From contig JAYRMR010000013.1 of NCBI GenBank assembly GCA_041912595.1, forward strand, positions 1-64,000: a DNA stretch of 64,000 nucleotides, written 5' to 3'. Numbering within the stretch: position 1 is the first letter of the stretch; each line of letters opens with the position of its first letter. The position numbers were made by a program, and so were the translations under genes. Source of the stretch: Burkholderiaceae bacterium. GTDB taxonomy: Bacteria > Pseudomonadota > Gammaproteobacteria > Burkholderiales > Burkholderiaceae_C. The notes beneath the pieces were generated by a model. The model did no database searches and was not told the DNA's origin. It saw nothing but the letters and a program-made list of their open reading frames with translations. Positions 1,441-18,199 of this stretch are shown one piece after another.

Positions 1441-2658
1441 TCAGCCGAGGCCGAAGGGGTCGTCCAGCGACTTCATCGGCGGCGTGAACCAGCGCGGGCC
1501 GTCGGCGCTCATGAACATGTGGTCCTCGTGCCGCACGCCGAATTCGCCGGGGCAGACGATCATGGGCTCGTTGCTGAAGCACATGCCCACGTCCAGCGGC
1601 GTCAGGTCCCCCTCGACCATGTAGGGCCACTCGTGGATGTCCAGCCCGCAGCCGTGCCCGGTGCGGTGCGGCAAGCCCGGCAGGCGATAGCCCGGGCCCA
1701 GCCCGGCGGCCTCCAGCACGCGGCGCGCGGCGCGGTCCACCTCTTGGCAGGCCCGCCCCAGCTGCGCCGCCTCGAAGGCCGCAGCCTGCGCGGCCTGCTC
1801 CAGGTTCCAGATCTCGCGCTGGCGCGCCGTGGGCGTGCCGAAGACGTAGCTGCGCGTGATGTCCGACATATAGCCCTCCACCAGACAGCCGGTGTCGATC
1901 AGCACCATGTCGCCCTCGCGCAGGGTCTGCGGCTCCTTCACGCCATGCGGGAATGAGCTGGCGACGCCGAAGAGCACGATCTTGAAGTAGGAGCCCGGCG
2001 CGCCGACGCGGCGGTGCGCCTCGTCGAGGAAGGCGGCCACCTCGGTCGTGGTGATGCCCTCGTGCAGGATGCTGGCGGCGGCGCGGTGCACGGCCAGCGT
2101 CATGTCATGGGCGCGCTGCATCAGCGCAAGCTCCGCCGCGGACTTGCGCATGCGGCAGGCCGCCGTCATCGGGCGGGCGTTGATCCACTGCAGCGTCGGC
2201 GCGACCTGGCGAAGGCCATCGGCCACGAAGAAGGGGCAGTCTTCCGACAGCCCCACCGTCGCCCCCGGGCCCACGCCCATCTCGCCCAGGACGCCGGCCA
2301 GCAGCGCATAGGGGCTCTCGTGCTCCTCCCACAGGCGCAGCTCGCCGGGCAGCAGCCAGTAGTCCCGCAGCGTGCCCTCCTCGAAGGCTGGGGCGAGGTA
2401 CTGCAGCGCGCCCTGCGCAGGCACCAGCGCGCCCACGAGGCGCTCGCTGGCCGGCCAGGCGAGGCCCGTGAAATAGCGCAGGTTCGTGCCGGCATGCAGA
2501 TACACGGCCGCCACGCCCGCCTCGCGCATCAGGCCTTGCAGGCGTCGCAGGCGCGTCTCGTACTCACCCACGCCGATGGGCTCGACGCCCGCCGTCATGA
2601 CCTGCAACTCAGCCAGCGCCTCCGCACGGGAGCGCCCGCCCACACCGATTGCCTTCAT
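1441..2658 (-). CDS. M24 family metallopeptidase (Xaa-Pro dipeptidase/creatinase-like)
   Basis: 405 aa with a creatinase N-terminal domain and the pita-bread fold metal ligands (DTGC…, HRTGHGCGLDIHE…, NEPMIV…, HEDHM). Confidence 0.85.
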   Translation of the reverse strand: MKAIGVGGRSRAEALAELQVMTAGVEPIGVGEYETRLRRLQGLMREAGVAAVYLHAGTNLRYFTGLAWPASERLVGALVPAQGALQYLAPAFEEGTLRDYWLLPGELRLWEEHESPYALLAGVLGEMGVGPGATVGLSEDCPFFVADGLRQVAPTLQWINARPMTAACRMRKSAAELALMQRAHDMTLAVHRAAASILHEGITTTEVAAFLDEAHRRVGAPGSYFKIVLFGVASSFPHGVKEPQTLREGDMVLIDTGCLVEGYMSDITRSYVFGTPTARQREIWNLEQAAQAAAFEAAQLGRACQEVDRAARRVLEAAGLGPGYRLPGLPHRTGHGCGLDIHEWPYMVEGDLTPLDVGMCFSNEPMIVCPGEFGVRHEDHMFMSADGPRWFTPPMKSLDDPFGLG

Positions 2659-2677
2659 GATTCGCCTCGCAGTTCTT

Positions 2678-2689
2678 TTGATATATCAA
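2678..2689. promoter_or_regulatory. Perfect 12-bp palindrome TTGATATATCAA in divergent promoter region (peptidase / OmpA-like paralog 1)
   Basis: Seen directly in the sequence, in an AT-richer intergenic stretch 20 bp upstream of the minus-strand start at 2658. Confidence 0.3.
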
Positions 2690-2824
2690 CAGAATACCAC
2701 CGCATTACATGAGCCGATGTCACCGCTGCTTGCAATTTCCCACCGCTCGGGGGATGGGCGCATCCACGCGCGACTCCTATCGTGCGCGGGCGCCAATCGG
2801 GCGTACCTTCCACCAACGATCGAT

Positions 2825-3667
2825 ATGCGTCGAGCCCTGCCCCGCGTTCTGCTGCCCCTGACCCTTGCCCTCAGCGCCCTGTCGAGCCACGCACTCGAGG
2901 TCTCGCCCGTCAAGGGCTACGCCGGCAATGGCGAGAAGACCAAGGCGATGGACGTGGTCAAGGTGTGGGCCGTCTGCGGCACCAGCTACTGCGAGGACAC
3001 TCCGGCCGGCAAGCGCCGGGACATCGAGCTGGTCGGCCGAGTCCGCGAGCAGACGCTCTTCAACCGCGACAAGGCCCTGATGGTGGGGCCGTCCATCGTG
3101 GCGCGGGAGTACGCGGACGTGGCCAAGCGTCAGGGCGGCAAGCTCATCAATCAGCTGGAAGGCTCCAGCGGCCCCTTCATCTACCGCTTCGCGCGTGCGG
3201 ATGGCGGTGCCGACTGGCTGGTGCTCAAGGACAACTTCGAGGGCTACTACACCCTCATCGTGGTCGAGGAAGCCCAGCGCGAGAGCACCGTCACCATCTC
3301 GGCGCAGGACATGTCCAATGCGCTGAAGGCCGAAGGCGACGTGGCCCTGTACATCGAGTTCGAGACCGCCAAGGCCGAGATCCTGCCGGCCGGCCAGGGC
3401 CTGGTGAAGGAGATCGTCACCCTGCTGCGCAACGAGCCGACGCTGAAGGTTTCGATCGAGGGCCACACCGACAACACCGGCAATGCCGCCGAGAATCAGC
3501 GTCTCTCGCAGGCCCGGGCCGAGGCGGTCATGAAGGCCGTGATCGCGCAGGGCATCGATGCCAAGCGGCTGAAGTCCGCCGGCCACGGCGCGACCTACCC
3601 GATCGCGGACAACCGCAAGGAGGCAGGCCGCAGCAAGAACCGCCGCGTTGAGCTGGTCAAGCTGTGA
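2825..3667 (+). CDS. Periplasmic OmpA-family protein, paralog 1 (signal peptide + uncharacterised ~170-aa N-domain + OmpA C-like domain)
   Basis: Signal peptide MRRALPRVLLPLTLALSALSSHA. C-terminus carries the OmpA/MotB peptidoglycan-binding motif IEGHTDNTGNAAENQRLSQARAEAV…NRRVELV. Start chosen at the Met followed by a signal peptide within ORF 2486..3667. Confidence 0.8.
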   Translation: MRRALPRVLLPLTLALSALSSHALEVSPVKGYAGNGEKTKAMDVVKVWAVCGTSYCEDTPAGKRRDIELVGRVREQTLFNRDKALMVGPSIVAREYADVAKRQGGKLINQLEGSSGPFIYRFARADGGADWLVLKDNFEGYYTLIVVEEAQRESTVTISAQDMSNALKAEGDVALYIEFETAKAEILPAGQGLVKEIVTLLRNEPTLKVSIEGHTDNTGNAAENQRLSQARAEAVMKAVIAQGIDAKRLKSAGHGATYPIADNRKEAGRSKNRRVELVKL

Positions 3668-4533
3668 TGCAGGCGCCCCACCAGATGTCACTGCACCGCC
3701 GCTCCCTGCTCGCCCTGCTCGCCAGCGCGGGTCTGCCCGGCTTCGCCCGAGCCGCCGAAAGCGAGATGACCGATCACCCGCTGCTGTCCGGCATGAGCGG
3801 CTTCGCCCTGCGCAGCAAGACGGCGCGGGAGGCAGATACCTTCGTCCTCGAGAAGGTCTGCGGCAAGCTGCCCTCGCAGGCCCTGCCCTGGCTGGTGGAC
3901 GGCAAGGTCACCCGCATGGAATACCGGCCGCAGGGGAAGGGCAGCGGGCCGCTGGCCATCCTGCGCAGCTACCAGCAGGCCATCGCCAAGGCGGGTGGCC
4001 AGCAGCTCAACACCGGCTTCAGCCTCAGCGACGACGGCGTGCAGTACATGCCGCACGTCTTCCGTCTGCAGGTCGACAAGACCCCGGTGGTGGTGGTCCT
4101 CCTCCTCGACACGAGCAACTACCAGCTGACGATCATCGAGCAGCAGCCCTTGGGCGAGCTGGTGACAGCCTCAAAGCTGGCGGCCGACCTGAAGGCCGCG
4201 GGCGTGGCCACGCTGCACATCGAGTTCGAGACCGGCAAGTCCCAGCTGCCCTCCGCCGGGCAGGCGATGGTCAAGGAGATTGCCACGCTGTTGCGCAATG
4301 CGCCGGAGCTTCAGCTGTCCATCGAGGGGCACACCGACCGCGTCGGGCAGGCCGCGGACAACTTGCGACTGTCCCAGGAGCGCGCGGAGGCCGTGATGAA
4401 GGCGGTGGTGGCCCAGGGCATCGAGGCCAAGCGCCTGAAGGCCGTGGGGCACGGCCAGAACGAGCCCGTGGCGGACAACCGCACCGAGGAAGGCCGCGCC
4501 AAGAACCGCCGGGTCGAACTGGTCAAGAGATAA
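3664..4533 (+). CDS. Periplasmic OmpA-family protein, paralog 2
   Basis: Same architecture as paralog 1 (IEGHTDRVGQAADNLRLSQERAEAV…NRRVELVKR). Start overlaps the upstream stop (ATGA). Confidence 0.8.
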   Translation: MMQAPHQMSLHRRSLLALLASAGLPGFARAAESEMTDHPLLSGMSGFALRSKTAREADTFVLEKVCGKLPSQALPWLVDGKVTRMEYRPQGKGSGPLAILRSYQQAIAKAGGQQLNTGFSLSDDGVQYMPHVFRLQVDKTPVVVVLLLDTSNYQLTIIEQQPLGELVTASKLAADLKAAGVATLHIEFETGKSQLPSAGQAMVKEIATLLRNAPELQLSIEGHTDRVGQAADNLRLSQERAEAVMKAVVAQGIEAKRLKAVGHGQNEPVADNRTEEGRAKNRRVELVKR

Positions 4534-4560: not shown

Positions 4561-4974
4561 TCAGGGCGCCAGGCGCGCCAGCTCCCGCTCCAGCGCGATG
4601 ACGTCCTGCCGCGCGCGCTGCAGGGCCTCGGCCGCTCCCGGCTCGCGGCCGGCCAGCTGCAGCGCGGCCAGGCGCGCGCGTTCTTGGTCGAGTTCCTGCT
4701 GAAGGATCTGGCGCCGCCCTTCGTCGTTGCTGCGGGACGGTACCGTGCTGACCGTTCGGACCACCCCCGCGGCAGACGCCGTCGCGATCTCGCCGCCGGG
4801 TGCGCGCGCCGCGACCGGGCAGGCCTTGCCGCCCGATCCCAGCCATTCCACGCCACCTTGCCGGCAGGACGCGCCCGTGGCGGCCTGCGCGCGCTCCAGG
4901 ATGACGCCGCCGGCCTGCACGTCCAGCGCGCAGGCCAGCACAGCGAGCCCCGTCAGGAGTCGCCCGCCGCGCAT
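4561..4974 (-). CDS. Hypothetical secreted protein with coiled-coil C-terminus
   Basis: Start taken at MRGGRLLTGLAVLACALDVQA (signal peptide). C-terminus is a heptad-like stretch QQELDQERARLAALQLAG…IALERELARL. Last gene of the divergent minus-strand trio next to the tad locus. Confidence 0.45.
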   Translation of the reverse strand: MRGGRLLTGLAVLACALDVQAGGVILERAQAATGASCRQGGVEWLGSGGKACPVAARAPGGEIATASAAGVVRTVSTVPSRSNDEGRRQILQQELDQERARLAALQLAGREPGAAEALQRARQDVIALERELARLAP

Positions 4975-4984
4975 GCGGTGCTCA

Positions 4985-5356
4985 TCAGCCGCCGCTACTG
5001 CTGCCATTGTTGACAGTCACCCGCGCCAGGCGCCCCATGTCGTCTTCCACGGTCACCACCATGCTGGTCATGCAGATGCCGCCCACGAAGTTGATCTGGA
5101 AGGCGTCACCACTGGCCGGCACCACCGAGCGACTAAAGGACAGGCCCACCGGCAAGGGATTGCTGACCCGGTAGGGCGGCGTGCCGCCAAACACATGCAC
5201 CTGCGGTCCGTTGCCGATATAGCAGCCACCGTCGCCCTTGGAGACGGTCACGGTGCTCATGGACACCTCGATCGAATCGGCCGGGCCGGACTCGTTGCCG
5301 CCACCGCCACAGCCGCTCAGCGCCAGCAGGGCCGCGGCACACCACATCATCTTCAT
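4985..5356 (-). CDS. Small lipoprotein
   Basis: MKMMWCAAALLALSGCGGGG has a lipobox LSGC. 123 aa, Gly/Ser rich. Confidence 0.5.
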   Translation of the reverse strand: MKMMWCAAALLALSGCGGGGNESGPADSIEVSMSTVTVSKGDGGCYIGNGPQVHVFGGTPPYRVSNPLPVGLSFSRSVVPASGDAFQINFVGGICMTSMVVTVEDDMGRLARVTVNNGSSSGG

Positions 5357-5388
5357 CAGGACTCCCTCTTCATTTTTCAAAAACGAAT

Positions 5389-6096
5389 TCACCGCTCGGC
5401 GCGGGTCTGCATCTCCACGATTGCGAAGCTCTCGATGGGCAGACGACCGCGAAGGTAGTAACGGACACATTCATCGGACGCGATCAGGTACTTGGACTCG
5501 AGCACACTCACGTTCCCGAAGGCATCCACACCCGAGTTGCCGCTGCACATGACACGTCGCAGCACACCGGCCATCAGGGGCACCTTGAGTTCATAGCCGT
5601 AGACAACGCGGATCTTCAGGAGGTTGGCATCCCGCAGACGCTGCTGCGAGGAGGCCCCGGGCTTGTCCAGCCGCCACTCCAGGTTGTCATTCGGGATGTA
5701 GGTCTTGCCGGTCGTGGGGTCCTTGACCCCGAAGTCATCGAAGGACTGGGCCGATGGATTCAGGCGTTCCAGCTTCACCGGATGCAGGACCTGATCGAGC
5801 TCCGTGTCCACCTTGGCCTTGGCCAGGCGCACGCTGTCGTTCGTCTCGAAGTTGTTTTGATAGAAGGGGCTGAGCGAGCGCAGCAGGGCGGTCTTCATGA
5901 CCCCTTCGTCCGCGTTGTGCAGGGAGCCCAGGCGCGCGGCCTGGAAGGTCGCGTGGTTGACCTGCAGCTTCGCCATGTAGATGAAGCCGGCCTGCACCAG
6001 GCCCAGCACGAACACGATGGCCACGGGCAGGACGATCACGAACTCGACCAGACCCAGGCCTCTGGGCGACCTGCCATGACGATGCCTGACGCGCAT
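5389..6096 (-). CDS. TadE/TadG-like pseudopilin (Flp pilus assembly)
   Basis: N-terminus MRVRHRHGRSPRGLGLVEFVIVLPVAIVFVLGLVQ matches the TadE-like motif. GGAGGAGG RBS precedes the ATG at 6096. Divergent from flp. Confidence 0.65.
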   Translation of the reverse strand: MRVRHRHGRSPRGLGLVEFVIVLPVAIVFVLGLVQAGFIYMAKLQVNHATFQAARLGSLHNADEGVMKTALLRSLSPFYQNNFETNDSVRLAKAKVDTELDQVLHPVKLERLNPSAQSFDDFGVKDPTTGKTYIPNDNLEWRLDKPGASSQQRLRDANLLKIRVVYGYELKVPLMAGVLRRVMCSGNSGVDAFGNVSVLESKYLIASDECVRYYLRGRLPIESFAIVEMQTRAER

Positions 6097-6474
6097 CTCG
6101 CGCCTCCTCCACTTGAACTCTGTTGATGGGCCCGCCGTACATGGGCGGACCTGCATGAATGCGGGGCGGCGAGCGCCTGTGCAGCCGGGAAGCCCCATGG
6201 AATGGGCCTTGCGGCGGGGCCGGGTCGGGCAGCTTCTCCCCTTTCGGCGGCGCGAGTCTGGCCGGCGTCCGTGACAACGTCAACAAATTCCGTGCATTTT
6301 TAACAATGCAACAGACGCCTTACCTTGACTTACAAACGACCAGCCTTTAGGGGGTGGTGCGCTGCAGCAAACATCGAATAACGTGCCGACCTGTGATGCG
6401 ATGGCCACTGAGTCTCGCGTCCAGACAGGGCCTCAGGAGGAGGCTCGCCATCCACACATCCATGCGAGGAAACC
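6097..6474. promoter_or_regulatory. Divergent promoter/5'-UTR region between tadE/G-like gene and flp pilin
   Basis: A 378-bp noncoding stretch with locally lower GC (TTTTTAACAATGCAACAGACGCCTTACCTTGACTTACAAAC contains a TTGACT -35-like hexamer). Implies a long flp leader. Confidence 0.4.
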
Positions 6475-6771
6475 ATGCTGCAAATGCAACAACGCGCCCT
6501 GAACAAGTCCAAGATCCGCGGTCAGGGCATGACCGAGTACATCATCATCGTGGCGCTGATCGCCATCGCCGCCATCGGCGTCTACAGCCTGTTCGGTGAC
6601 GTGGTGAAGAAGCAGACCGGCGCCATGGCCGCTGGCCTGGCGGGTGACAACGGCAATGCCGTGACCTGGAACGGCAAGGCCAAGGAGAAGACCGAGAACG
6701 AGAAGAAGAAGGTCGAGAACGTGAAGGGCCTGAACGACTTCACGAAGGACAACGACCTGGGTTCGAAGTAA
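6475..6771 (+). CDS. flp: Flp/Fap family type IVc pilin (Flp-1) with extended Lys/Glu-rich C-terminal tail
   Basis: IRGQGMTEYIIIVALIAIAAIGV fits the Flp prepilin motif G/XXXXEY followed by a hydrophobic helix. 98 aa against the typical 50–70. The tail reads KAKEKTENEKKKVENVKGLNDFTKDNDLGSK. Confidence 0.8.
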   Translation: MLQMQQRALNKSKIRGQGMTEYIIIVALIAIAAIGVYSLFGDVVKKQTGAMAAGLAGDNGNAVTWNGKAKEKTENEKKKVENVKGLNDFTKDNDLGSK

Positions 6772-6786
6772 GCACTCTGAGTGCAA

Positions 6787-6835
6787 GGGTGGGGCGCCTG
6801 CGCCTGCACCCTACACTTTGATCCCCACTTTCTTC
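6787..6835 (+). terminator. Putative intrinsic terminator/attenuator downstream of flp
   Basis: GC hairpin GGGTGGGGCGCC-TGCGCC-TGCACCC followed by a T-rich tract (TACACTTTGATCCCCACTTTCTTCT). Sits between flp and the next operon gene. Confidence 0.4.
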
Positions 6836-6845
6836 TACGCACACC

Positions 6846-7694
6846 ATGTCCTCGAGTTCTTCCCGTTTCTTGCTGTCCGCCCTTTGCCTGCTCTCACTGG
6901 CCTCGGCCCATGCGCTGGAGGTGACTCCGCCGCGTGGCTACCAGTTCAGCAAGCCGCCGGAAGTGAAGCAGCACGGGATCTACACGGTCTACATCCGGTG
7001 TGCGTCGAAGTTCTGCGGAAGCATCGCTACTGGCAAGACCGGTGACCTGGAACTGGAGGGCAAGACCTCCCGCTATACGGTCAACGCCATCAGCGACCAG
7101 AACGAGATGGACAGCCGCGCCATCAACAAGGAATACCTGGCGCTGGCCGCGAAAGCGGGTGGTGCACAGGTGGATGAAGGCAATTCGATCGGTCCGAACG
7201 TGTACCGCATCCCTCGTGCCAACGGCAAGGGCGCGGACTGGATCGTGATCGAGCACAACTACGGTCGCCGCTTCGAGATGACCGTCATCGAGGAAGCGGC
7301 CCAGGAACTGACGGCCACGATCACGGCCTCCCAGATGGGCCAGTCGATCGATGCCACCGGCAGCGTCGCGCTCTATATCGAGTTCGACACCGCCAAGGCC
7401 ACGATCAAGCCTGCGGGCGAGGCCACCGTGAAGGAGATCGCCGCGCTGCTCAAGAGCCAGCCGGCGCTGCGCCTCTCGGTGGAAGGCCACACGGACAACG
7501 TCGGCCAGGCCGCCGACAACAAGCGCCTCTCGCAGGCGCGCGCTGAAGCCGTCATGAAGGCCGTGGTCGCCCAGGGCATCGATGCCAAGCGACTCAAGGC
7601 CGTCGGCCAGGGGCAGGAGTACCCCATCGCCGACAACCGGACCGAGGAAGGCCGCGGCAAGAACCGCCGGGTCGAACTCGTCAAGATGAAGTGA
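6846..7694 (+). CDS. Periplasmic OmpA-family protein, paralog 3 (embedded in tad operon)
   Basis: Signal peptide MSSSSSRFLLSALCLLSLASAHA. Same N-domain as paralogs 1 and 2 (ADWLVLKDNFEGYY vs ADWIVIEHNYGRRF). C-terminal OmpA motif VEGHTDNVGQAADNKRLSQARAEAV…NRRVELVK. Confidence 0.85.
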   Translation: MSSSSSRFLLSALCLLSLASAHALEVTPPRGYQFSKPPEVKQHGIYTVYIRCASKFCGSIATGKTGDLELEGKTSRYTVNAISDQNEMDSRAINKEYLALAAKAGGAQVDEGNSIGPNVYRIPRANGKGADWIVIEHNYGRRFEMTVIEEAAQELTATITASQMGQSIDATGSVALYIEFDTAKATIKPAGEATVKEIAALLKSQPALRLSVEGHTDNVGQAADNKRLSQARAEAVMKAVVAQGIDAKRLKAVGQGQEYPIADNRTEEGRGKNRRVELVKMK

Positions 7695-7743: not shown

Positions 7744-9270
7744 ATGGTTTGCGAGATGGCCACCGTGCGTGGCCCGGGCAGCGCTTTGCCCAAACACCGC
7801 CGGCCGACCGGCGCCAAGCCCCAGCGGGGCCAGGCCATGATCTGGATGCTGGGCATGCTGGCAGCCAGTGGCGCGGTCATGTTCGCGCTGTTCAACACCT
7901 CGCAGACCACGGTGAGCAAGGAGCGCACCATCAATGCCGCCGATGCCGCGGCATTGGCAGGGGCGACGGCCGAGGCCCGCCTGCTCAACCTGATGGCCTA
8001 CAACAACCGCGCCATCATCGCCAACGAAGCCTTCCTGATCCAGTTGCTCAGCCTGGAGGGCTGGACGCAGTATGTGGGCAAGACCGCGAAGACGTTCGGC
8101 ACGATCCTGCACATCCTGAGCTTGATCCCGCCGATCTCGGCACCCGCCAATGCCGCTGCCACGGCGCTGGACAAGGCAAGCACCGCCGCAGACAAAGCCC
8201 ACGATGCGGTGAGCAGCGGGGCCACGCCCGTCGTCATCACGATGCTCGAGACAGCCAAGAGCGTCGCCAAGTTGTCTCATGGCGCCATCCGTGAAACCGG
8301 CAGCTTCCTGGCTGCCGACGCGGCACGCGCCATCGCCTCCGCCAACCGCACGGACTTCGGCGGACGCCACGACCCGGGCCAGAGCGTTCTGGAGACGCCC
8401 GCGATGATGGGCGTCACGCTGGGCATGAACCTCACGGACTGGCGCAACTTCACCAAGATCTACGAAGGCTCCGAACGCGGCGACGCCAAGCAGGTGCTGC
8501 TGGACTCGCGGGATGCCTTCACCACGAGCCGGCCCGGCCGCTCGTGGCTCAACTTCAAGTTCGATGTCATCCCCCTGGTGCGGCGCGTCGGCCTCGAGAA
8601 GAACGGCGGCTCCCAACTGGTCGGCTTCGACCGCTGGGAGACGCAGGACACCCTGGAGCTGCTGACCTGGACCAAACGGCGCCCGTGGAGCGGCTGGCGA
8701 CTGAATCCCAGCGACGGCCTCCCCCTCGGCTGGGGCCGCGCCACGGCGGATGACACCGAGAACAAGGGCAATGTCTGGTCGCCCTCCCGCCTGGCCCAGC
8801 GTCGGGCGCGCAACGACGGCGACGCGCACGGCGGCTGGTCCGGCGTGCCATCGCTCTACAACGTCGCGGACACCAGCGAGCCGGCCCGCGCTGGCCTGGG
8901 CGTGGACTTCCTCGTGGCCGTCGGACGCCCGCAGGGCAATGACATCACGACTACCTCGCTGAAGATGGGCAGCACGAGCACCAGCGTCCTGGGCGCGACG
9001 GACATGCCGCAGGCTCAGGATGCGGGCCGCCATACGGCATTCGCCAAGGCCCGCGTGAGCTTCGAGCGGCCCCAACGGGGACTTGCCGGTGACACCACCG
9101 CAGCGCCTCTGTGGCGTCGCGACACCGCGAAGGAATATGGCTCGCTCTACAGCCCTTACTGGCAGGCGCGCCTCGCCGACCTGACGGTGGGCGAGAAGAC
9201 GGCCATGCTGGCCGCCGTCGGACTGACGCCGGACTACCTCGTCTACACGCCGGGAGCGCAGTCCAAATGA
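7744..9270 (+). CDS. TadG-like Flp pilus assembly protein
   Basis: N-terminus …KPQRGQAMIWMLGMLAASGAVMFALFNTSQ matches the TadE/G-like N-terminal motif. 508 aa, no obvious vWA MIDAS motif. GAGGGAG RBS. Confidence 0.7.
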   Translation: MVCEMATVRGPGSALPKHRRPTGAKPQRGQAMIWMLGMLAASGAVMFALFNTSQTTVSKERTINAADAAALAGATAEARLLNLMAYNNRAIIANEAFLIQLLSLEGWTQYVGKTAKTFGTILHILSLIPPISAPANAAATALDKASTAADKAHDAVSSGATPVVITMLETAKSVAKLSHGAIRETGSFLAADAARAIASANRTDFGGRHDPGQSVLETPAMMGVTLGMNLTDWRNFTKIYEGSERGDAKQVLLDSRDAFTTSRPGRSWLNFKFDVIPLVRRVGLEKNGGSQLVGFDRWETQDTLELLTWTKRRPWSGWRLNPSDGLPLGWGRATADDTENKGNVWSPSRLAQRRARNDGDAHGGWSGVPSLYNVADTSEPARAGLGVDFLVAVGRPQGNDITTTSLKMGSTSTSVLGATDMPQAQDAGRHTAFAKARVSFERPQRGLAGDTTAAPLWRRDTAKEYGSLYSPYWQARLADLTVGEKTAMLAAVGLTPDYLVYTPGAQSK

Positions 9271-10268
9271 AGGCGTTCAGCCGCGGCACCGCCGCTCCGG
9301 CCGCAAGTCGTGAACTTGACGGCGTGTGCCCCATGAGTCCGCCCCCCCGGCGTAAGCGCTGGCCGTTCCCTGGCAGGTCCTTTGCTGCGGCCGCCCTGAT
9401 GGCCCTGTTGGCCGGCGGCCTGCATGCCGCAGGCCAGAAGGAGGGCCGTGTGCCGGCGGTCCGCGTCGTGACGGCCGGTCACGCGCCCGCGAGCCAGTTG
9501 CGGGATCAGCTCGAGCCCCTGCTCATGCTGTGTCGCAAGCAGCTGAACCTCCCGCCCGAACCCAGCGGCATGCCCAGCGACGCCGCGCTGGCGCGTGTCG
9601 CCAGCATCGAGACCGAGGTGCTGCTCGATGGCCCCCGCTATGCGAAGTACCAGACCACCCGCAATCTCCTGCCGGATGACAAGGACGGCTGCAAGGTGAA
9701 GGTGCTCCGGCAGTTCACGGTGGAGCTCGAGAGCAGTTGCGACCGGCGCTGGTCCGCCACGTCCGGTGGGCCTGGCTTCAAGGCCGCACCCATGAAAAGT
9801 AGCGAGCTCGTCTACACCCAGGACGCTGAGCAAGCCCGATCCTCGCCGTGCCAGGTCCGCGTGGAGCCCACGCCCGATCTGGTCGCCGCCTGGAAGAAGA
9901 CGTCCCGTCAGCCGGCTGGCCTGGGTGCCCAATGCCTGTGGAGCAACGAGCTCGGTCTGCACCTGGGCGGCAGCAAGGCATCGGCCCATCCCGACCCGCT
10001 CAGCGGCAGCTGCTATGCCGCGGACCTGCCGGACTACCCCTTCACCACCTATCAAGGCAACCGGCGCTCCGTGTCCCTGAAGTTCCGCATGGCACGACTG
10101 CCGGGAGACACCTTCCGGCCGCCGGGCATCGTGGCCGGCCTGCTCGACCAGGAACTGAAGGAATTCAGCATGGATGCCGCAATCCCGGAAGGCCGCTTCA
10201 GTCGCGCGCAGGCCGAGGCCTTCCTGAAGCAGCCCGCCATCGTTCCTCTTGCGGAGCCCAGCAAATGA
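9267..10268 (+). CDS. Hypothetical secreted Cys-containing protein (tad operon)
   Basis: ATGA overlap with the tadG stop. Signal-like segment RSFAAAALMALLAGGLHAAG. No recognisable domain. Alternative start at Met 9333. Confidence 0.5.
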   Translation: MKAFSRGTAAPAASRELDGVCPMSPPPRRKRWPFPGRSFAAAALMALLAGGLHAAGQKEGRVPAVRVVTAGHAPASQLRDQLEPLLMLCRKQLNLPPEPSGMPSDAALARVASIETEVLLDGPRYAKYQTTRNLLPDDKDGCKVKVLRQFTVELESSCDRRWSATSGGPGFKAAPMKSSELVYTQDAEQARSSPCQVRVEPTPDLVAAWKKTSRQPAGLGAQCLWSNELGLHLGGSKASAHPDPLSGSCYAADLPDYPFTTYQGNRRSVSLKFRMARLPGDTFRPPGIVAGLLDQELKEFSMDAAIPEGRFSRAQAEAFLKQPAIVPLAEPSK

Positions 10269-11083
10269 AGCACGCCCTGCCTCTCCCGGACGCCTGCACA
10301 CAGCGCACAGCCCCCGCCACGCGTCGTGCGAGGCAGCGTGGCCAGTCCATCTCCGAGTTCCTGGTGTCGCTGATCGCCCTGGTGCCGGTCTTTCTGGCCA
10401 TCACCTACCTGGGCCGCTATGCCGACCTGCACCAGCGGGCCACGCAGGCCAGCCGGTACGCCGCCTTCCAGCGCACCATGCAGCCGAACACCGCCATCCT
10501 GTCCGACGCGGATCTGCAGGACCAGATGCGCGCACGCTTCTTCCTGGCGCCCAAGGCCCTGCACGATGGCCGCATCCAGTCGGACGACTCCGTGGCAGGC
10601 ATCACCGATGCGAAGAAGTCCCCGGCCATCTGGAGCGACCTGAGCGGCAAGGCGCTGCTGGCCAAGCCGGGCGACGTCACCATGACCTGGGACAGCAAGG
10701 CCATGGGCAACAAATCGGTGGTCAGCGGTCTGGACAAGGCCTTCGGCCTCGTGGGCAAGGACTACACGCCGGGGCACCGCGCCATGGTTGAACTGACGCT
10801 GCTGAACCGTCTGGACCAGACGGAAGCCACGCCCAAGGCGCTGAAACTCGCGGCGGCGACGACCGCCCCCGGGGAGTCCCTCGTCGCCAAAGGCGGCGAC
10901 GGGACCGCCGATGCCGCCCGCCGGCTGGTCCCGGCGACCCTCATCCCGTCCGTTGTCGAATCAGTGCTGGGCTTTGTGATCTCGCTGTTCGAGCAGGATT
11001 CGCCGGACATCGGCTGCATCAAGGCAGACACCGTCCCCACGAATCGACTCAAAGGCGCCACACAGCAAGACGTGTGCCGCTGA
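10265..11083 (+). CDS. TadE-like pseudopilin
   Basis: ATGA-coupled start. RGQSISEFLVSLIALVPVFLAITYLG is the TadE-like domain. Confidence 0.7.
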   Translation: MKHALPLPDACTQRTAPATRRARQRGQSISEFLVSLIALVPVFLAITYLGRYADLHQRATQASRYAAFQRTMQPNTAILSDADLQDQMRARFFLAPKALHDGRIQSDDSVAGITDAKKSPAIWSDLSGKALLAKPGDVTMTWDSKAMGNKSVVSGLDKAFGLVGKDYTPGHRAMVELTLLNRLDQTEATPKALKLAAATTAPGESLVAKGGDGTADAARRLVPATLIPSVVESVLGFVISLFEQDSPDIGCIKADTVPTNRLKGATQQDVCR

Positions 11084-11781
11084 TCATGGCCCCCTATCTG
11101 TCTCCTCGGCTGCTGCCGCTCCTGCTGGGCATCGTCTGGGTGTCCGCGCAGGCCACCGACTGGCGATCGCTGGCGCTGCCGGATCGCACCCAGGGCGAAT
11201 GGGTGCTGGGCGAAGCCCGCGTCAACGGCGTCCCGATGCAGACCCAGCGGCTGACGTCACGGCTGACGGTCGAGCAACTGCTCGCGCATTTCGAGGACCA
11301 GTGGAAGCGCTGGGGTTCCGTGCGCCGCGCCACCACCGCGGGCTGGCAGACGCTCAGCGTCAACACGGGTCCGGTGCAACTGACCCTGCAGGCCAAGGCG
11401 GCCCAGGACGGTAGCGAGGGCATCCTGACCCAGGCGGCCTGGCCCGAGCGGCAGCGGGACTTCCTTCCCCCGGAACTCCCTGACCTGCCCCGCACCGACG
11501 CCCAGCAGGTCACCGAGTCCCGCGACGGCCCGCGCCGCAGCCGCCTCGTGCATCTGCTATCCCAGGACAACCTGGAACTCAACCGCCAGCGCTGGCAGGC
11601 CTATGCCCGCCGCAAGGGCTGGGCGCTGACCACCGAGAAGCTGCTCAAGCAGTCCGGGCAGCAGCACTGGCTGGCGAGCTTCACCAGCGGCGGCGCCCTG
11701 ACGCTGGACCTCGTCCTGTCCCAGTCCGACGCCGCTGCCAAAACCAGCATCACCGCCAACTTCCTGGACACCGTGCCATGA
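11074..11781 (+). CDS. Hypothetical secreted protein (tad operon)
   Basis: Signal peptide MPLIMAPYLSPRLLPLLLGIVWVSAQA. 235 aa with no recognisable domain. Overlaps its neighbours. Confidence 0.5.
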   Translation: MPLIMAPYLSPRLLPLLLGIVWVSAQATDWRSLALPDRTQGEWVLGEARVNGVPMQTQRLTSRLTVEQLLAHFEDQWKRWGSVRRATTAGWQTLSVNTGPVQLTLQAKAAQDGSEGILTQAAWPERQRDFLPPELPDLPRTDAQQVTESRDGPRRSRLVHLLSQDNLELNRQRWQAYARRKGWALTTEKLLKQSGQQHWLASFTSGGALTLDLVLSQSDAAAKTSITANFLDTVP

Positions 11782-11960
11782 CACCGATCCACCGCCGCCG
11801 CCAGCGCGGCCAGGCCACCCTCGAATACGCCATCGCCGCCAGCGCGCTGGTCATGGCGCTGTTCGTCGTCGAGTTCAGCGGCAAGACCGCCGCACAGTAC
11901 CTCGCAGAAGCCGTCCGCGTCTTCTACAAGAACCTCAGCTATTTCCTCTCCCTGCCCTGA
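11778..11960 (+). CDS. Second Flp-family pilin/minor pilin (Flp-2), 60 aa
   Basis: RRQRGQATLEYAIAASALVMALFVV carries a G/XXXXEY prepilin motif. ATGA-coupled to the upstream gene and sits immediately before cpaB. Confidence 0.55.
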   Translation: MTPIHRRRQRGQATLEYAIAASALVMALFVVEFSGKTAAQYLAEAVRVFYKNLSYFLSLP

Positions 11961-11962
11961 CC

Positions 11963-12847
11963 ATGGCCCTCTCCCTGAAAAAGATCAACAGCAACTGGCT
12001 GCTCCTCGGCGCCGCGATTCTCCTGGGCGGCGGCGCAGCCTATCTCGGGGGTGCCGCGCTGAAGCAGCGGATGCACGAGCTGGACGAGCAGGCCAATGCG
12101 GGCAAGGACATGGTCTCCGTCGTCGTCGCGCGGCGTGACATGCAGCGCGGCGAACCCGTCGAGCCCGACTCCTTCGCCGTGCGCAAGGTGCCCAGCGAGT
12201 ACCTCAACGCCGACGCGGTGAAGCCCGGCGACTTCGAGCCCTACGTGACGCAGCGCCTGATCGTCGGCCTCAAGCGCGGCGACGTCCTGCTGCCCGTGCA
12301 CACCGAGGGCAACGGGAACAAGGTGTTCTCGTCCACCCTGGGCGTCGGCAAGCGCGCCCTGACCTTCGAGGTGGACACCGTCAACTCCGTCTCCGGGATG
12401 CTGCGCCCGGGCGACCGCATCGACCTGCTCTACACCGCCAAGGGCCTGGACTCGGTCGATGTCACCCAGCCCCTGCTCTCCAACCTGGAGATCCTGGCCA
12501 CCGACCAGAACCAGACCCGCCGTGACGAGAACGGCAAGGAACGCAACTTCTCGACCATCACCATGGAGCTGTCGCCCCAGGACGCCCAGCGCGTGATCGT
12601 CGCCAAGCAGGCTGGCCGCCTGACCGCCCTGCTCCGCCACCCGGACGACAAGGCCGCCAACCCGAGCGGCGCCATGGACCCCACCGTGCTGCTGAGCGGT
12701 CGCGTGCGTCGCGCCAACGGCGAGCGCCAGGGCATCGAGTACCTGGTCGGCGGAGGCGGCGGCCCGGCTGACATCAAGACCCAGCTCAGCCGCCTGGCGC
12801 TGAGCGGCGAGCTCGGCGCTCCCGCCGCGGCCCCTGCCAAGCCCTGA
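11963..12847 (+). CDS. cpaB: Flp pilus assembly protein CpaB/RcpC
   Basis: 294 aa. N-terminal TM helix, then SAF-like β domains (VVVARRDMQRGEPV…, RPGDRIDLLYT). Position matches the canonical tad order. Confidence 0.85.
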   Translation: MALSLKKINSNWLLLGAAILLGGGAAYLGGAALKQRMHELDEQANAGKDMVSVVVARRDMQRGEPVEPDSFAVRKVPSEYLNADAVKPGDFEPYVTQRLIVGLKRGDVLLPVHTEGNGNKVFSSTLGVGKRALTFEVDTVNSVSGMLRPGDRIDLLYTAKGLDSVDVTQPLLSNLEILATDQNQTRRDENGKERNFSTITMELSPQDAQRVIVAKQAGRLTALLRHPDDKAANPSGAMDPTVLLSGRVRRANGERQGIEYLVGGGGGPADIKTQLSRLALSGELGAPAAAPAKP

Positions 12848-12855
12848 TCGCCGCC

Positions 12856-14376
12856 ATGTCCATCGCATTCAATCTCACGTTCCCCATGTCCTCGACTCCT
12901 ACCCTCGGTCTGGCGCGTCCGCTCGTCCTGCTCGCCTGTCTCACGCTCTGCGCCACGGCCCATGCCGACCCGGCCGGCGACACCCCCGCGGCCGGCCCCG
13001 GCGCGGGCCGCGGCGCGGTGAACCCCGCGGCCGTGCAGTCCACGCTGATCGAGACGGCCAAGCCGGCCCGCGGTGCGGCCAAGCCCGCCCCGGGCCCGGT
13101 CGCCATCGAGTCCGGCCCCACCCGGACCCTGGCCGTGGGCGACGTCTCCACGATCAACCTGCCCGGCGTCGTGCGCATCGCCATCGGCAATGGCGGCCTG
13201 CTGAAGGCCACCGTGGTCGATGACCGCGAGATCGTGCTGATCGCCGAACAGTCCGGCCGCACGACCATGCATGTCTGGCTGAAGAACGGTCGGCAGCTGA
13301 GCTACGAGATCGAGGTGCTGGCCTCGCGCCCCAACCGCGTGCTGGACGAACTCCAGGGCCTGTTGAAGGAGACGCCGGGCCTCACTGCCCGCGTGGTGGG
13401 CGAGCGCGTCGTGATCGAGGGCCGCTACCAGGACAGCACCGTCGCCCAGCGCATCAAGCGCCTGGCGAGCAACTTCCCGCAGATCCTCAACCTCGTGCCT
13501 GACCGCCCGGTGGACGCCGACCCCCTGCAGCTCGAACGCATGGTGCAGATCGACCTGCGCGTGATCGAGGTGAAGAAGCGCGCGCTGGACCAGCTGGGCA
13601 TCAAGTGGGCCAGCGGTGCCGCAGGCCCCACCTTCGCCACCAACGCCCTCGTGTACAGCAACACCCCGTGGCGTCCGGAGACGACCAACGGCTACCCGCC
13701 CGTCAACACCAGCAACCCGATCTACAGCTACCTCGGCATGGCGACGCAGATCACCAGTGCCCTGCGCTTCCTCGAGACCCGCGGCGAAGCCTGGACCCTG
13801 GCCGAACCGCGCCTGAGCTGCCGCAGCGGCGGCGAGGCCAACTTCCTGGCCGGTGGCGAGATTCCCATCCCCGTCGGCCAGGGCAATGGCGCGATCGGCG
13901 TGATCTACAAGCAGTACGGCGTGCGCATCGAGTTCAAGCCCCAGGCCGATGGCCACGGCAACATCGACTCCGGTCTGATGGTCGAGGTGAGCGAGCCCGA
14001 CGGCCGCAACTCCAACGCCGGCTTCATCGCCTTCACGACGAACCGCACCGACACGCAGGTCGCCATGAAGGAAGGGGAACCGCTGGTGATCTCGGGCCTG
14101 CTGCGCCAGCGCACCGAGCGCAGCACCGACGCCGTGCCGGGCCTGGGCCGCATCCCCATCATCAGCAATCTGTTCAAGTCGCGCGACCACACGAACGAGC
14201 AGACCGAGCTCATCGTGATCGCCACGCCGCGCATCATCACGCCCGACTCCGCCCTCACCCGCCTGAGCGTCGACAAGGCCGCCAGCCTGGCGGAGCAGGT
14301 CAACGAACGCGTGACGAGCAAGCTCAAGCCCGAGTCCGGCAGCAACGGCGCCGAGTCGGGCCAGGAGGCACGCTGA
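12856..14376 (+). CDS. cpaC: Flp pilus secretin CpaC/RcpA
   Basis: 506 aa. BON-like N-domain, then secretin C-domain (…ISGLLRQRTERSTDAVPGLGRIPIISNLFKSRDHTNEQTELIVIATPRII). Confidence 0.9.
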   Translation: MSIAFNLTFPMSSTPTLGLARPLVLLACLTLCATAHADPAGDTPAAGPGAGRGAVNPAAVQSTLIETAKPARGAAKPAPGPVAIESGPTRTLAVGDVSTINLPGVVRIAIGNGGLLKATVVDDREIVLIAEQSGRTTMHVWLKNGRQLSYEIEVLASRPNRVLDELQGLLKETPGLTARVVGERVVIEGRYQDSTVAQRIKRLASNFPQILNLVPDRPVDADPLQLERMVQIDLRVIEVKKRALDQLGIKWASGAAGPTFATNALVYSNTPWRPETTNGYPPVNTSNPIYSYLGMATQITSALRFLETRGEAWTLAEPRLSCRSGGEANFLAGGEIPIPVGQGNGAIGVIYKQYGVRIEFKPQADGHGNIDSGLMVEVSEPDGRNSNAGFIAFTTNRTDTQVAMKEGEPLVISGLLRQRTERSTDAVPGLGRIPIISNLFKSRDHTNEQTELIVIATPRIITPDSALTRLSVDKAASLAEQVNERVTSKLKPESGSNGAESGQEAR

Positions 14377-16972: not shown

Positions 16973-16975
16973 ACC

Positions 16976-17842: not shown

Positions 17843-18199
17843 ATGGGCTGGCCGCAAGCCCGCCTGCATCTGCAGGGCATCGCCACCCATGTGCGGATCG
17901 GCCTCGCGCTGCGCTGGTGGGAGCGCGCCCGCGGCCTGCTGTTCCACGGGCAGCTGCAGGACGCCCCCGCCGGGCTGTGGATCGCGCCGTGCAACAGCGT
18001 GCACATGCTCGGCATGCGCCAGGCGCTGGACATCGTCTACCTCGACCGCGACGGCGTGATCCTCAAGTGCGTGCCGACGCTGCGCCCCTGGCGCCTGAGC
18101 GCCTGCCCGGGCGCGCATGTGGCGCTCGAGCTGCGCACCGGGCTGATCGCGGAGCTCGGCCTCAAGCCGGGCCTGCGGCTCCAGGCGCGCGGCGGCTAG
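17843..18199 (+). CDS. DUF192 domain protein (tad-associated)
   Basis: 118 aa (…WIAPCNSVHMLGMRQALDIVYLDRDGVI…) immediately after tadC. Confidence 0.65.
   Translation: MGWPQARLHLQGIATHVRIGLALRWWERARGLLFHGQLQDAPAGLWIAPCNSVHMLGMRQALDIVYLDRDGVILKCVPTLRPWRLSACPGAHVALELRTGLIAELGLKPGLRLQARGG

What the first reader, a model, noticed from the sequence alone, without database searches (positions are those of the whole stretch)
6475..6771. Flp-1 pilin with an unusually long, Lys/Glu-rich C-terminal tail
The prepilin motif G/QGMTEY and hydrophobic helix are canonical. The mature pilin would be about 75 aa, ending in KAKEKTENEKKKVENVKGLNDFTKDNDLGSK. This highly charged, low-complexity tail would decorate the pilus surface. 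Typical Flp pilins are 40–60 aa with short C-termini. The tail could mediate adhesion, DNA or ion binding, or serve as a modification site. The gene is also locally lower in GC than its neighbours.
Basis: seen in the sequence. Interest (0 to 1): 0.6.

Follow-up and report, generated by a model that had tools for sequence, protein, structure and literature searches.

The report
Long-tailed Flp pilin, typical of its family
This is a real pilin gene at the head of a Tad-type pilus operon; its mature product (82 residues) is well above the 40-60 usual for Tad pilins, but the long tail is standard in a large, apparently unstudied family, and only the Lys/Glu-richness is special to this lineage.

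Summary
The ORF 6475..6771(+) is real. It encodes a 98-aa Flp-type prepilin, and the exact protein occurs on at least 24 independently assembled contigs. Cleavage at G16|Q17 gives an 82-aa mature protein, not about 75.

The low GC comes from amino-acid composition (GC3 0.90, like the neighbours), not from foreign origin.

The long tail is not an outlier. The protein belongs to a family of 5,933 clusters at 90% identity and 853 at 50%. Mature length there has a median of 77-80 aa. The family shares invariant G41, Q47, G57 and L86, F/Y89, and a heptad-like alanine stripe in the tail. No member tested reaches the Pfam Flp_Fap threshold.

The family leads a conserved Tad-like operon in Beta- and Gammaproteobacteria: TadG-like, TadE-like, a short 49-aa Flp-like protein, CpaB, secretin, FHA-fused CpaF, TadB, TadC, DUF192. 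The window holds no TadV and the genes scanned include no TadZ.

AlphaFold predicts helix through about residue 83 and a poorly defined C-terminus. Whether it is a hairpin or a straight helix is unresolved.

K/E-richness is confined to the Roseateles-like clade. The tail's net charge is about +2, so DNA binding is not favoured.

Best reading: it is the major subunit, and the extra helix forms the filament surface. This is a new structural variant of a known kind, of modest interest.

The parts
6466..6471 (+). GAGGAA ribosome-binding site, 3 nt upstream of the ATG
   Evidence: Read directly from the sequence. GAGGAAACC precedes the ATG in window, L001 and L002 of the six aligned relatives.
6475..6771 (+). 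Long Flp-type prepilin gene (98 aa plus stop)
6475..6522 (+). Class III leader peptide, residues 1-16, ending in R-G. Predicted cleavage is G16|Q17.
   Evidence: The G|QGMTEY motif is found in 234 of 258 family members that carry a G|xxxxE[YF] motif. Leader length varies between 8 and 61 residues. Cleavage itself is inferred, not shown.
6523..6645 (+). Mature residues 1-41, the canonical Flp core. It holds E5/Y6, the hydrophobic alpha1N, invariant G25, Q31 and G41. It corresponds to a whole conventional Tad pilin.
   Evidence: Conservation. dN/dS is 0.04.
6646..6726 (+). Tail helix, prepilin residues 58-84. It is K/E-rich in this clade and carries an Ala/small stripe at positions 62, 65, 69, 73, 76 and 80 in the family.
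   Evidence: AF2 predicts helix 59-81, or a continuous helix up to residue 83. Stripe. There are 9 attractive i,i+3/i+4 charge pairs against 4.7 in shuffles, P = 0.017.
6727..6768 (+). C-terminal segment, residues 85-98, with the conserved G-L-x-x-F motif (L86, F89) followed by a variable polar end
   Evidence: L86 occurs in 214 of 235 sequences and F/Y89 in 231 of 235. AF2 gives coil with pLDDT 43-60.
6786..6812 (+). GC-rich hairpin just after the stop codon, a possible attenuator between the pilin gene and the downstream genes
   Evidence: Fold of -26.9 kcal/mol but z only -1.65. It is not called by the terminator scan. Weak evidence.
5389..6096 (-). Divergent TadE-like pseudopilin gene (235 aa)
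   Evidence: Pfam TadE, E 5e-11. Called as 235 aa in other assemblies.
6846..7694 (+). OmpA-family protein directly downstream of the pilin. This position is specific to the window's clade.
   Evidence: Pfam OmpA, E 5.6e-25. Found downstream of the pilin in L001-L004, L007 and L072 only.
7837..9270 (+). TadG-like protein (PF13400)
10265..11083 (+). Second TadE-like pseudopilin
   Evidence: Pfam TadE, 22.0 bits, E 1.8e-4, just below the 22.9 cut-off. A tblastn match to this protein (E<=1e-5) lies in this position in most related loci.
11778..11960 (+). Short Flp-like gene: 60 aa, MTPIHRRRQRG|QATLEY..., mature 49 aa. It is translationally coupled and lies immediately upstream of cpaB.
   Evidence: The same kind of gene lies upstream of cpaB in at least 51 of 81 loci.
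11963..12847 (+). CpaB/RcpC
   Evidence: Pfam RcpC, E 2.9e-25.
12856..14376 (+). CpaC/RcpA secretin
   Evidence: Pfam Secretin, E 6.5e-34.
14376..16133 (+). CpaF/TadA ATPase with an N-terminal FHA domain
   Evidence: Pfam T2SSE, E 1e-65, and FHA, E 2.4e-16.
16130..17842 (+). TadB and TadC platform proteins (16130..16972 and 16976..17842)
   Evidence: Pfam T2SSF.
17843..18199 (+). DUF192 protein that closes the operon
   Evidence: Pfam DUF192, E 3.9e-15. A tblastn match to it lies after tadC in about 36 of the 80 loci, i.e. in most of those whose sequence extends past tadC.

Best explanation
The gene encodes the major structural subunit of a Tad-like (type IVc) pilus. It belongs to a distinct, widespread family of 'long Flp' pilins.

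Proposed steps:
1. A prepilin peptidase encoded elsewhere removes the 16-residue leader at G16|Q17 (inferred).
2. Mature residues 1-41 are equivalent to a complete conventional Flp pilin: E5/Y6, hydrophobic alpha1 and G25. They would build the helical core of the filament, as in the Caulobacter Tad pilus (inferred by homology).
3. After the invariant G41 (prepilin G57), about 25 further helical residues plus a conserved K-G-L-x-x-F C-terminal motif form an extra outer layer. In ordinary Tad pili this layer is absent and the surface is just the polar end of alpha1. In most family members the extra helix has a heptad-like alanine stripe suited to tight helix-helix packing.
4. In this Roseateles-like clade the exposed positions are filled with Lys and Glu, arranged as i,i+3 and i,i+4 salt-bridge pairs. 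This gives a stiff, strongly hydrated and nearly charge-neutral surface.
5. The surface face evolves quickly while the core is frozen, as expected for the exposed part of a pilin.

Shown here: gene reality, family membership, tail conservation, operon association, helix propensity and the selection pattern. Inferred: processing, filament assembly, major-subunit status and the geometry of the extra helix.
For: - Motif and core: G|QGMTEY plus a hydrophobic helix. 50 of 56 family members give sub-threshold Flp_Fap hits and 23 hit the archaeal class III signal model. hhalign against Caulobacter PilA gives probability 75%, E 2.5e-5, over alpha1.
- Position: the gene is first in a conserved operon (TadG-like, TadE-like, CpaB, secretin, FHA-CpaF, TadB, TadC, DUF192), and that order recurs in nearly all of the 80 genomes whose locus extends far enough.
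- Duplication: 15 of 80 loci carry 2-3 matches to the Q[GA][MLI]xE[YF] pilin pattern; where both copies are of the long QGM type (for example L004, L005, L006, L008, L043, L050, L067) they lie in tandem, as is usual for major pilins, but several of the extra matches are the short QAM-type gene before cpaB.
- Family tail architecture: mature length median 77-80 aa. G41, Q47 and G57 are invariant or nearly so, L86 occurs in 214/235, F/Y89 is nearly invariant, and there is an alanine stripe at positions 62, 65, 69, 73, 76 and 80.
- AF2: helical through residues 81-83 in two runs, with mean pLDDT 73-75.5.
- Charge pattern: 9 attractive i,i+3/i+4 pairs against 4.7 expected, P = 0.017.
- Selection: window against L001 gives dN/dS 0.04 for the core and about 0.9 for the tail. 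In other clades the tail dN/dS is 0.02-0.3 at dS 0.5-1.6, so the tail is functional.
- All differences within the 90% cluster beyond the leader and I31V lie in residues 64-98.
Against: - There is no expression or proteomic evidence that this is the major subunit.
- The same operon has a second Flp-like gene of canonical size (11778..11960) that could be the major subunit instead.
- No prepilin peptidase is present in the 64-kb window or among the Pfam-scanned genes of the Shewanella locus, so processing is assumed.
- The two AF2 runs disagree on a helix-turn-helix against one continuous helix. pTM is low (0.32-0.44).
- The query's own tail helix has no significant hydrophobic moment (P = 0.68), so close packing of that helix is less clear in this clade than in the family consensus.
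- The tail dN/dS of about 0.9 rests on a single pair and few substitutions (15.2 non-synonymous, 3.8 synonymous).
- Foldseek gave no significant structural match.
Confidence: 0.6

Rival explanations
1. The long Flp is a minor, tip or priming pilin, or a regulatory decoy. The short 49-aa Flp-like protein encoded just before cpaB is the true major subunit.
For: - The short gene has the canonical Tad-pilin size and a G|QxxxEY motif.
- It is conserved immediately upstream of cpaB in at least 51 of 81 loci.
- It is translationally coupled within the machinery operon.
Against: [quoted passage not shown] This is unlike the polar surface patch described for Caulobacter PilA (PMC10710030).
- The short protein is never first in the operon. 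The only duplicated genes seen were of the long type, though the short type was not counted.
- The long pilin has the operon-head position and an almost invariant N-terminal 25 residues, as expected of a homopolymer core.
Confidence: 0.2
2. The tail is an intrinsically disordered, highly charged brush on the filament rather than a structured second helix.
For: - The composition is low-complexity K/E/N/D.
- pLDDT falls to 43-62 over the last 25 or so residues.
- Tail sequence varies strongly between clades.
- The query's hydrophobic moment is not significant.
Against: - Both AF2 runs predict helix through residue 81-83.
- The family-wide heptad-like alanine stripe and the near-invariant G57, L86 and F/Y89 argue for a defined packing.
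- Charges are ordered into i,i+3/i+4 pairs beyond chance (P = 0.017).
- Tail length is tightly conserved, and in several clades the tail is under strong purifying selection (dN/dS 0.02-0.15).
Confidence: 0.15
3. The apparatus is not an adhesive pilus. It is a Kil-like Tad-derived contact or secretion machine, in which the long Flp forms only a short pseudopilus.
For: - The ATPase carries an N-terminal FHA domain, as reported for Myxococcus KilF (PMC8460266).
- No TadV is in the window and none of the operon genes scanned is TadZ, TadD or RcpB.
- The accessory genes of unknown function are conserved.
Against: - The hosts are ordinary non-predatory Beta- and Gammaproteobacteria, such as Roseateles, Ideonella, Paraburkholderia, Massilia and Shewanella.
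- The operon is a single contiguous cluster with TadG- and TadE-like pseudopilins, unlike the split kil clusters.
- No toxin or effector gene was recognised next to it.
- This reading concerns the machine and is compatible with the structural description of the pilin.
Confidence: 0.1
4. The long tail is an artefact: a sequencing error removed an earlier stop, or the ORF arose by chance in GC-rich DNA.
For: None was found. GC-rich genomes do produce many spurious ORFs.
Against: - The identical 98-aa product is found on at least 24 independent contigs.
- The seven members of the 90% cluster are 95 or 98 aa; the 95-aa records begin at Met4, and all have a full-length tail.
- Tail length and the C-terminal motif are conserved across 235 aligned relatives.
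- GC3 is 0.90.
Confidence: 0.01

Closest known systems
Canonical Flp/Tad (type IVc) major pilins: Aggregatibacter Flp1, Caulobacter PilA (PDB 8u1k, 8u2b), Pfam PF04964
   Same: - Class III leader ending in Gly, with a G|xxxxEY processing motif and E5/Y6.
- A hydrophobic alpha1 with no Pro22, and a Gly at mature position 25.
- Encoded with CpaB, a secretin, CpaF, TadB, TadC and TadE/TadG-like pseudopilins.
   Different: - The mature protein is 82 aa, against 40-60 aa in general (PMC10710030) and 45 aa in the solved structures.
- It has about 40 extra C-terminal residues, predicted helical, with their own conserved motif.
- It scores below the Pfam gathering threshold: 13.6 bits against 32.2, and no family member tested reaches it.
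- The operon has an FHA-fused ATPase and DUF192. No TadV is in the window and no TadZ among the operon genes scanned.
Myxococcus xanthus Kil Tad-like apparatus (PMC8460266)
   Same: It is a Tad-derived machine whose CpaF-type ATPase carries an N-terminal FHA domain. It has a single ATPase and lacks several classical Tad accessory proteins.
   Different: - Kil genes are split into two clusters in a predator and include many FHA proteins.
- Here there is one contiguous operon in non-predatory proteobacteria.
- No comparison of KilK with this pilin was made.
Geobacter PilA-N / PilA-C split pilin, and type IV pilins with all-helical C-terminal domains (discussed in PMC10710030)
   Same: These are examples in which the outer surface of a filament with a short alpha1 pilin is supplied by extra polypeptide rather than by the end of alpha1.
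   Different: - Those are T4a-type systems with Phe1 and Pro22, or a separate second protein.
- Here the extra segment is a short fused helix on an Flp-type pilin.
- The hit to 7tgg is insignificant (E 0.29).

Membership tests
Flp/Fap Tad pilin (Pfam PF04964; type IVc major pilin) | Class III signal peptide with a G|XXXXEY cleavage motif (Glu5, Tyr6 of the mature protein) | tested here: met
   The protein has RG|QGMTEY. QGMTEY occurs in 234 of 258 relatives. G16, Q17, G18, T20, E21 and Y22 are invariant.
Flp/Fap Tad pilin (Pfam PF04964; type IVc major pilin) | Hydrophobic alpha1N of about 20 residues following Glu5, without Pro22 | tested here: met
   The segment is IIIVALIAIAAIGVYSLFG, which has no proline.
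Flp/Fap Tad pilin (Pfam PF04964; type IVc major pilin) | Score at or above the curated Pfam gathering threshold (32.2 bits) | tested here: not met
   The score is 13.6 bits, E 0.062. 50 of 56 family members hit the model, all below threshold, with a best E of 6.3e-5. There is no NCBIfam hit.
Flp/Fap Tad pilin (Pfam PF04964; type IVc major pilin) | Mature length of 40-60 aa, consisting of alpha1 only with no C-terminal domain (PMC10710030) | tested here: not met
   The mature protein is 82 aa, and the family median is 77-80 aa. There is an additional predicted helical segment, residues 58-83.
Flp/Fap Tad pilin (Pfam PF04964; type IVc major pilin) | Encoded in a tad/cpa locus with CpaB/RcpC, a secretin, the CpaF/TadA ATPase, TadB, TadC and pseudopilins | tested here: met
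   Synteny holds in nearly all of the 80 related loci that extend far enough.
Flp/Fap Tad pilin (Pfam PF04964; type IVc major pilin) | A dedicated prepilin peptidase (TadV/CpaA) in the locus, and actual cleavage of the leader | tested here: not met
   The window has no GxGDxK peptidase motif. No multi-TM ORF in the window is a peptidase A24. None of the ten ORFs scanned in the Shewanella locus L043, which include every gene not matched by tblastn, is an A24 peptidase. A peptidase elsewhere in the genome cannot be excluded, and cleavage itself cannot be tested here.
Flp/Fap Tad pilin (Pfam PF04964; type IVc major pilin) | Polymerises into a surface filament | not testable with these tools
   This needs microscopy or proteomics of sheared pili.
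Kil-like Tad apparatus (Myxococcus) | CpaF-type ATPase fused to an N-terminal FHA domain | tested here: met
   FHA, E 2.4e-16, plus T2SSE, E 1e-65, in 14376..16133. The same architecture is seen in Shewanella L043.
Kil-like Tad apparatus (Myxococcus) | Genes split into two clusters, several further FHA proteins, and a role in contact-dependent prey killing (PMC8460266) | tested here: not met
   Here there is a single contiguous operon, and FHA was found only on the ATPase. The killing function cannot be tested here.
Type IVa pilin (N_methyl, PF07963) | [quoted passage not shown] | tested here: not met
   The mature N-terminus is QGMTEY, there is no Pro22 and no globular domain, and the query has no N_methyl hit.

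The most novel reading that the evidence does not exclude
The 'long Flp' family defines a structurally distinct class of Tad (type IVc) filament. Each subunit would contribute a second helix and a conserved C-terminal L-x-x-F anchor, forming an outer all-helical layer over the alpha1 core. These filaments would be built by a Tad variant with an FHA-gated ATPase and (as far as the window shows) no dedicated TadV or TadZ. In this picture the outer layer is the evolvable surface: K/E-rich here, and A/T/S/Q/N-rich or acidic elsewhere. That would contradict the current generalisation that Tad pilins consist of alpha1 only.
Probability: 0.35. Interest if true: 0.55.

Novelty: new variant of a known kind. 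Interest (0 to 1): 0.35.

Why it matters
Tad pili are currently described as built from 40-60-residue pilins that are nothing but alpha1. The only solved structures, both from Caulobacter, fit that picture.

A family with hundreds to thousands of members across Beta- and Gammaproteobacteria carries a conserved extension of about 40 residues. It is tied to its own operon type. Its filament surface, diameter and mechanics may therefore differ from the textbook Tad pilus.

The family also escapes the Pfam Flp model, so surveys based on PF04964 would miss it.

For this particular gene the practical message is more modest. The tail is normal for its family, and the Lys/Glu-richness is a lineage-specific surface flavour.

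Tried and rejected
- Sequencing error or a spurious ORF: rejected.
- Horizontal transfer as the cause of low GC: rejected, because GC3 is 0.90.
- Structural homology by Foldseek against the PDB: only non-specific helical hairpins, with E > 2. The afdb50 library was unavailable.
- phmmer of the mature protein against PDB sequences: noise only. The profile search gave just weak hits to Tad pilins 8u1k and 8u2b (E 0.45-1.4) and to Geobacter pilin 7tgg (E 0.29).
- Promoter and terminator scans of 6050..6950: nothing found. The post-gene hairpin is not significant (z = -1.65).
- Amphipathicity of the query's tail helix: not significant.
- Prepilin peptidase in the window: none found by motif scan, TM-rich ORF screen or Pfam.
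- Literature searches for the sequence motif, for Tad systems with an FHA ATPase or DUF192, for Flp C-terminal extensions, and for Shewanella or Burkholderia Tad systems found no description of this family. The Variovorax and Aeromonas Tad loci that I read about are of the classical type.
- DNA binding by the tail: considered unlikely, because the charge is nearly balanced.

Full report
**Observation.**
The ORF at 6475..6771(+) translates to a 98-residue protein. It has a basic leader ending in R-G, then QGMTEY, a hydrophobic helix, and the quoted Lys/Glu-rich end. A GAGGAA ribosome-binding site precedes the ATG.

The gene is genuine:
- Its third-position GC is 0.90, like its neighbours.
- The identical protein is called on at least 24 independently assembled contigs from NCBI, Logan and ENA data.
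- Its 90%-identity cluster contains proteins from Roseateles sp. DB2 and Roseateles subflavus, named 'Flp family type IVb pilin' or 'pilus assembly protein'.

Two details need correcting.
- Cleavage after G16 gives 82 mature residues, not about 75.
- The local GC dip is fully explained by codon positions 1 and 2 (0.54 and 0.33). It reflects K/N/E/I-rich composition, not foreign DNA.

**Is the tail unusual?**
Against the textbook it is. A structural paper states that Tad pilins are 40-60 residues, comprise only alpha1 and lack a C-terminal domain (PMC10710030). The solved Tad pilins 8u1k and 8u2b are 45 residues.

Against its own relatives it is not.
- A search of 5.8 billion proteins returned 5,933 clusters with E <= 0.01. 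Nearly all of the 120 listed are 88-100 aa, and none has a precomputed Pfam domain.
- An exhaustive search of 50%-identity representatives gave 853 clusters at E <= 1e-3.
- Mature length has a median of 77-80 aa and an interquartile range of 74-80.
- In 235 aligned mature sequences the tail carries invariant or near-invariant Q47, G57, L86 and F/Y89.
- The tail also has a heptad-like stripe of Ala or small residues at positions 62, 65, 69, 73, 76 and 80.

So the stop codon is where it should be, and the tail is a conserved family feature.

What is particular to the window's clade is composition. K+E make up 42% of the last 31 residues, against a family median of 19%. Only 4 of 120 relatives reach that level. 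Other lineages have A/T/S/Q/N-rich or acidic tails, for example Shewanella with a net tail charge of -5 to -7.

**Relation to Flp.**
- The query scores 13.6 bits on Pfam Flp_Fap, against a threshold of 32.2. It has no NCBIfam hit.
- Of 56 family members, 50 hit Flp_Fap and 23 hit the archaeal class III signal model, all below threshold.
- A profile comparison with Caulobacter PilA gave 75% probability, E 2.5e-5. It covered only the leader end and alpha1.

By eye, mature residues 1-41 of the query line up with the whole 45-residue Caulobacter pilin, including Gly25. The family therefore looks like a complete Flp core plus an extension of about 40 residues.

**Context.**
The gene heads a Tad-type operon:

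| Gene | Coordinates |
|---|---|
| OmpA-family protein | 6846..7694 |
| TadG-like | 7837..9270 |
| Unknown | 9333..10268 |
| TadE-like | 10265..11083 |
| Unknown | 11074..11781 |
| Short Flp-like | 11778..11960 |
| CpaB | 11963..12847 |
| Secretin | 12856..14376 |
| CpaF with N-terminal FHA domain | 14376..16133 |
| TadB, TadC | 16130..17842 |
| DUF192 | 17843..18199 |
| Divergent TadE-like gene upstream | 5389..6096, minus strand |

In 80 genomes that carry a relative of the pilin, the same gene order recurs wherever the locus extends far enough. The order is pilin, TadG-like, TadE-like, CpaB, secretin, FHA-CpaF, TadB, TadC, DUF192. The hosts include Ideonella, Roseateles, Massilia, Paraburkholderia, Caballeronia, Variovorax, Chitinimonas, Advenella, Shewanella, Idiomarina and Steroidobacteraceae.

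The long-pilin family is thus the signature pilin of a distinct Tad-like operon type. No TadZ was found among the operon genes scanned and no TadV anywhere in the window. The Pfam-scanned genes of the Shewanella locus include neither. An FHA-fused ATPase is otherwise reported for the Myxococcus Kil system (PMC8460266).

**Structure and evolution of the tail.**
AlphaFold2 gave two somewhat different results.
- With 56 sequences it predicted helices 19-55 and 59-81, with a break at the invariant G57 and an ill-defined C-terminus (mean pLDDT 75.5).
- With 109 sequences on the mature protein it predicted one continuous helix up to prepilin residue 83, with a confidence dip around G57 (mean pLDDT 73).

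Helicity is therefore consistent between runs. Hairpin or straight helix is unresolved. Foldseek found only non-specific helical hairpins.

In the query, Lys and Glu are placed to make 9 attractive i,i+3 or i,i+4 pairs, against 4.7 expected by shuffling (P = 0.017). The helix has no significant hydrophobic moment. It resembles a salt-bridge-stabilised, solvent-exposed helix. The mature protein is nearly neutral (11 K against 10 D/E).

Between the window and its closest genome relative (L001), dN/dS is 0.04 for residues 1-56 and about 0.9 for residues 57-98. The counts are small: 15.2 non-synonymous and 3.8 synonymous changes. In other clades the tail is strongly constrained, with dN/dS 0.02-0.15 at dS 0.5-1.6. 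For example, the Limnobacter and Zeimonas pilins are 99% identical. The tail is functional everywhere, and in this clade it is evolving fast at the surface positions.

**Interpretation.**
The best-supported reading is that this is the major subunit of a Tad-like pilus. Its first 41 mature residues would form the usual helical core. Its extra helix and L-x-x-F motif would form an additional outer layer, here with a hydrated, zwitterionic Lys/Glu surface. My confidence is about 0.6.

The main rival is that the short, canonical-size Flp-like protein is the major subunit and the long Flp has a minor or specialised role (about 0.2). That short gene lies just before cpaB and is conserved in at least 51 of 81 loci. 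Against this rival:
- the short protein has a hydrophobic C-terminus;
- the long gene holds the operon-head position;
- the long gene is tandemly duplicated in a number of loci (for example L004, L005, L006, L008, L043, L050, L067);
- the long gene has a frozen N-terminus.

A disordered-brush model (about 0.15) and a Kil-like non-pilus machine (about 0.1) remain possible. An artefact is excluded.

DNA binding is not favoured by the balanced charge.

**Novelty.**
Individual members are already annotated in public databases as Flp family pilins. I found no paper that describes this long-Flp family or its operon type, but the searchable library is incomplete.

The gene itself is an ordinary member of its family. 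The family is a structural variant of Tad pilins: it departs from two stated defining features, size and alpha1-only architecture, and escapes the Pfam model. I rate it a new variant of a known kind, with modest interest (0.35).

Noticed in passing
window 11778..11960 (+): A second Flp-like gene of canonical size (60 aa, MTPIHRRRQRG|QATLEY..., mature 49 aa, ending in YFLSLP). Its ATG overlaps the stop of the upstream gene, and it ends 2 nt before cpaB. An equivalent small gene lies just upstream of cpaB in at least 51 of 81 loci. It has only weak Pfam hits (DUF4244, TadE, Flp_Fap, Class_IIIsignal).
   Followed up: partly
window 14376..16133 (+) and 17843..18199 (+); loci L001-L080: The operon type is distinctive. 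The CpaF ATPase carries an N-terminal FHA domain, and a DUF192 gene closes the operon. No TadV is in the window and no TadZ, TadD or RcpB among the operon genes scanned. The arrangement is conserved across Beta- and Gammaproteobacteria. An FHA-fused ATPase is otherwise reported for Myxococcus KilF.
   Followed up: partly
window 2486..3667, 3664..4533 and 6846..7694 (all +): There are three paralogous OmpA-family genes around the pilin: two upstream and one directly downstream. OmpA downstream of the pilin is found only in the window's clade (L001-L004, L007, L072). In several other genomes an OmpA gene sits upstream on the opposite strand.
   Followed up: partly
window 6250..6259 and 6320..6326: In the divergent intergenic region between the TadE-like gene and the pilin, the block GCGCGAGTCT is invariant in six related loci that are otherwise poorly alignable. 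A TTACnTT block nearby is also conserved. This may be a regulator site or promoter element. No sigma-70 consensus was found.
   Followed up: no
loci L014, L023, L035, L037, L044, L045, L055, L074: Long pilins of different genera (Limnobacter, Zeimonas, several Burkholderiaceae MAGs) are 95-99% identical in protein, although synonymous divergence is 0.5-1.6. This indicates unusually strong purifying selection on the whole pilin, tail included, or possibly recent transfer with codon amelioration.
   Followed up: partly
loci L004, L005, L006, L008, L043, L050, L067 and others: 15 of 80 loci carry 2-3 matches to the pilin pattern. In the loci named here both copies are of the long type, in tandem, with divergent tails; in others the extra match is the short QAM-type gene before cpaB. 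In Shewanella the second copy ends in a Gly/Ser-rich extension. The window has a single copy.
   Followed up: partly
window 6786..6812 (+): A GC-rich hairpin lies directly after the pilin stop codon without a clear U-tract. It could attenuate read-through into the machinery genes, but its folding energy is not significantly better than shuffles (z = -1.65).
   Followed up: partly
window 4561..5007 (-) and 4985..5470 (-): Two small genes without Pfam hits lie downstream of the divergent TadE-like gene. One has a lipoprotein-like signal. They are called as 137 and 123 aa in other assemblies, and tblastn with the 4985..5470 product finds a match beside the TadE-like gene in L001-L007 and L072; the 4561..5007 gene was not searched across those loci.
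   Followed up: no
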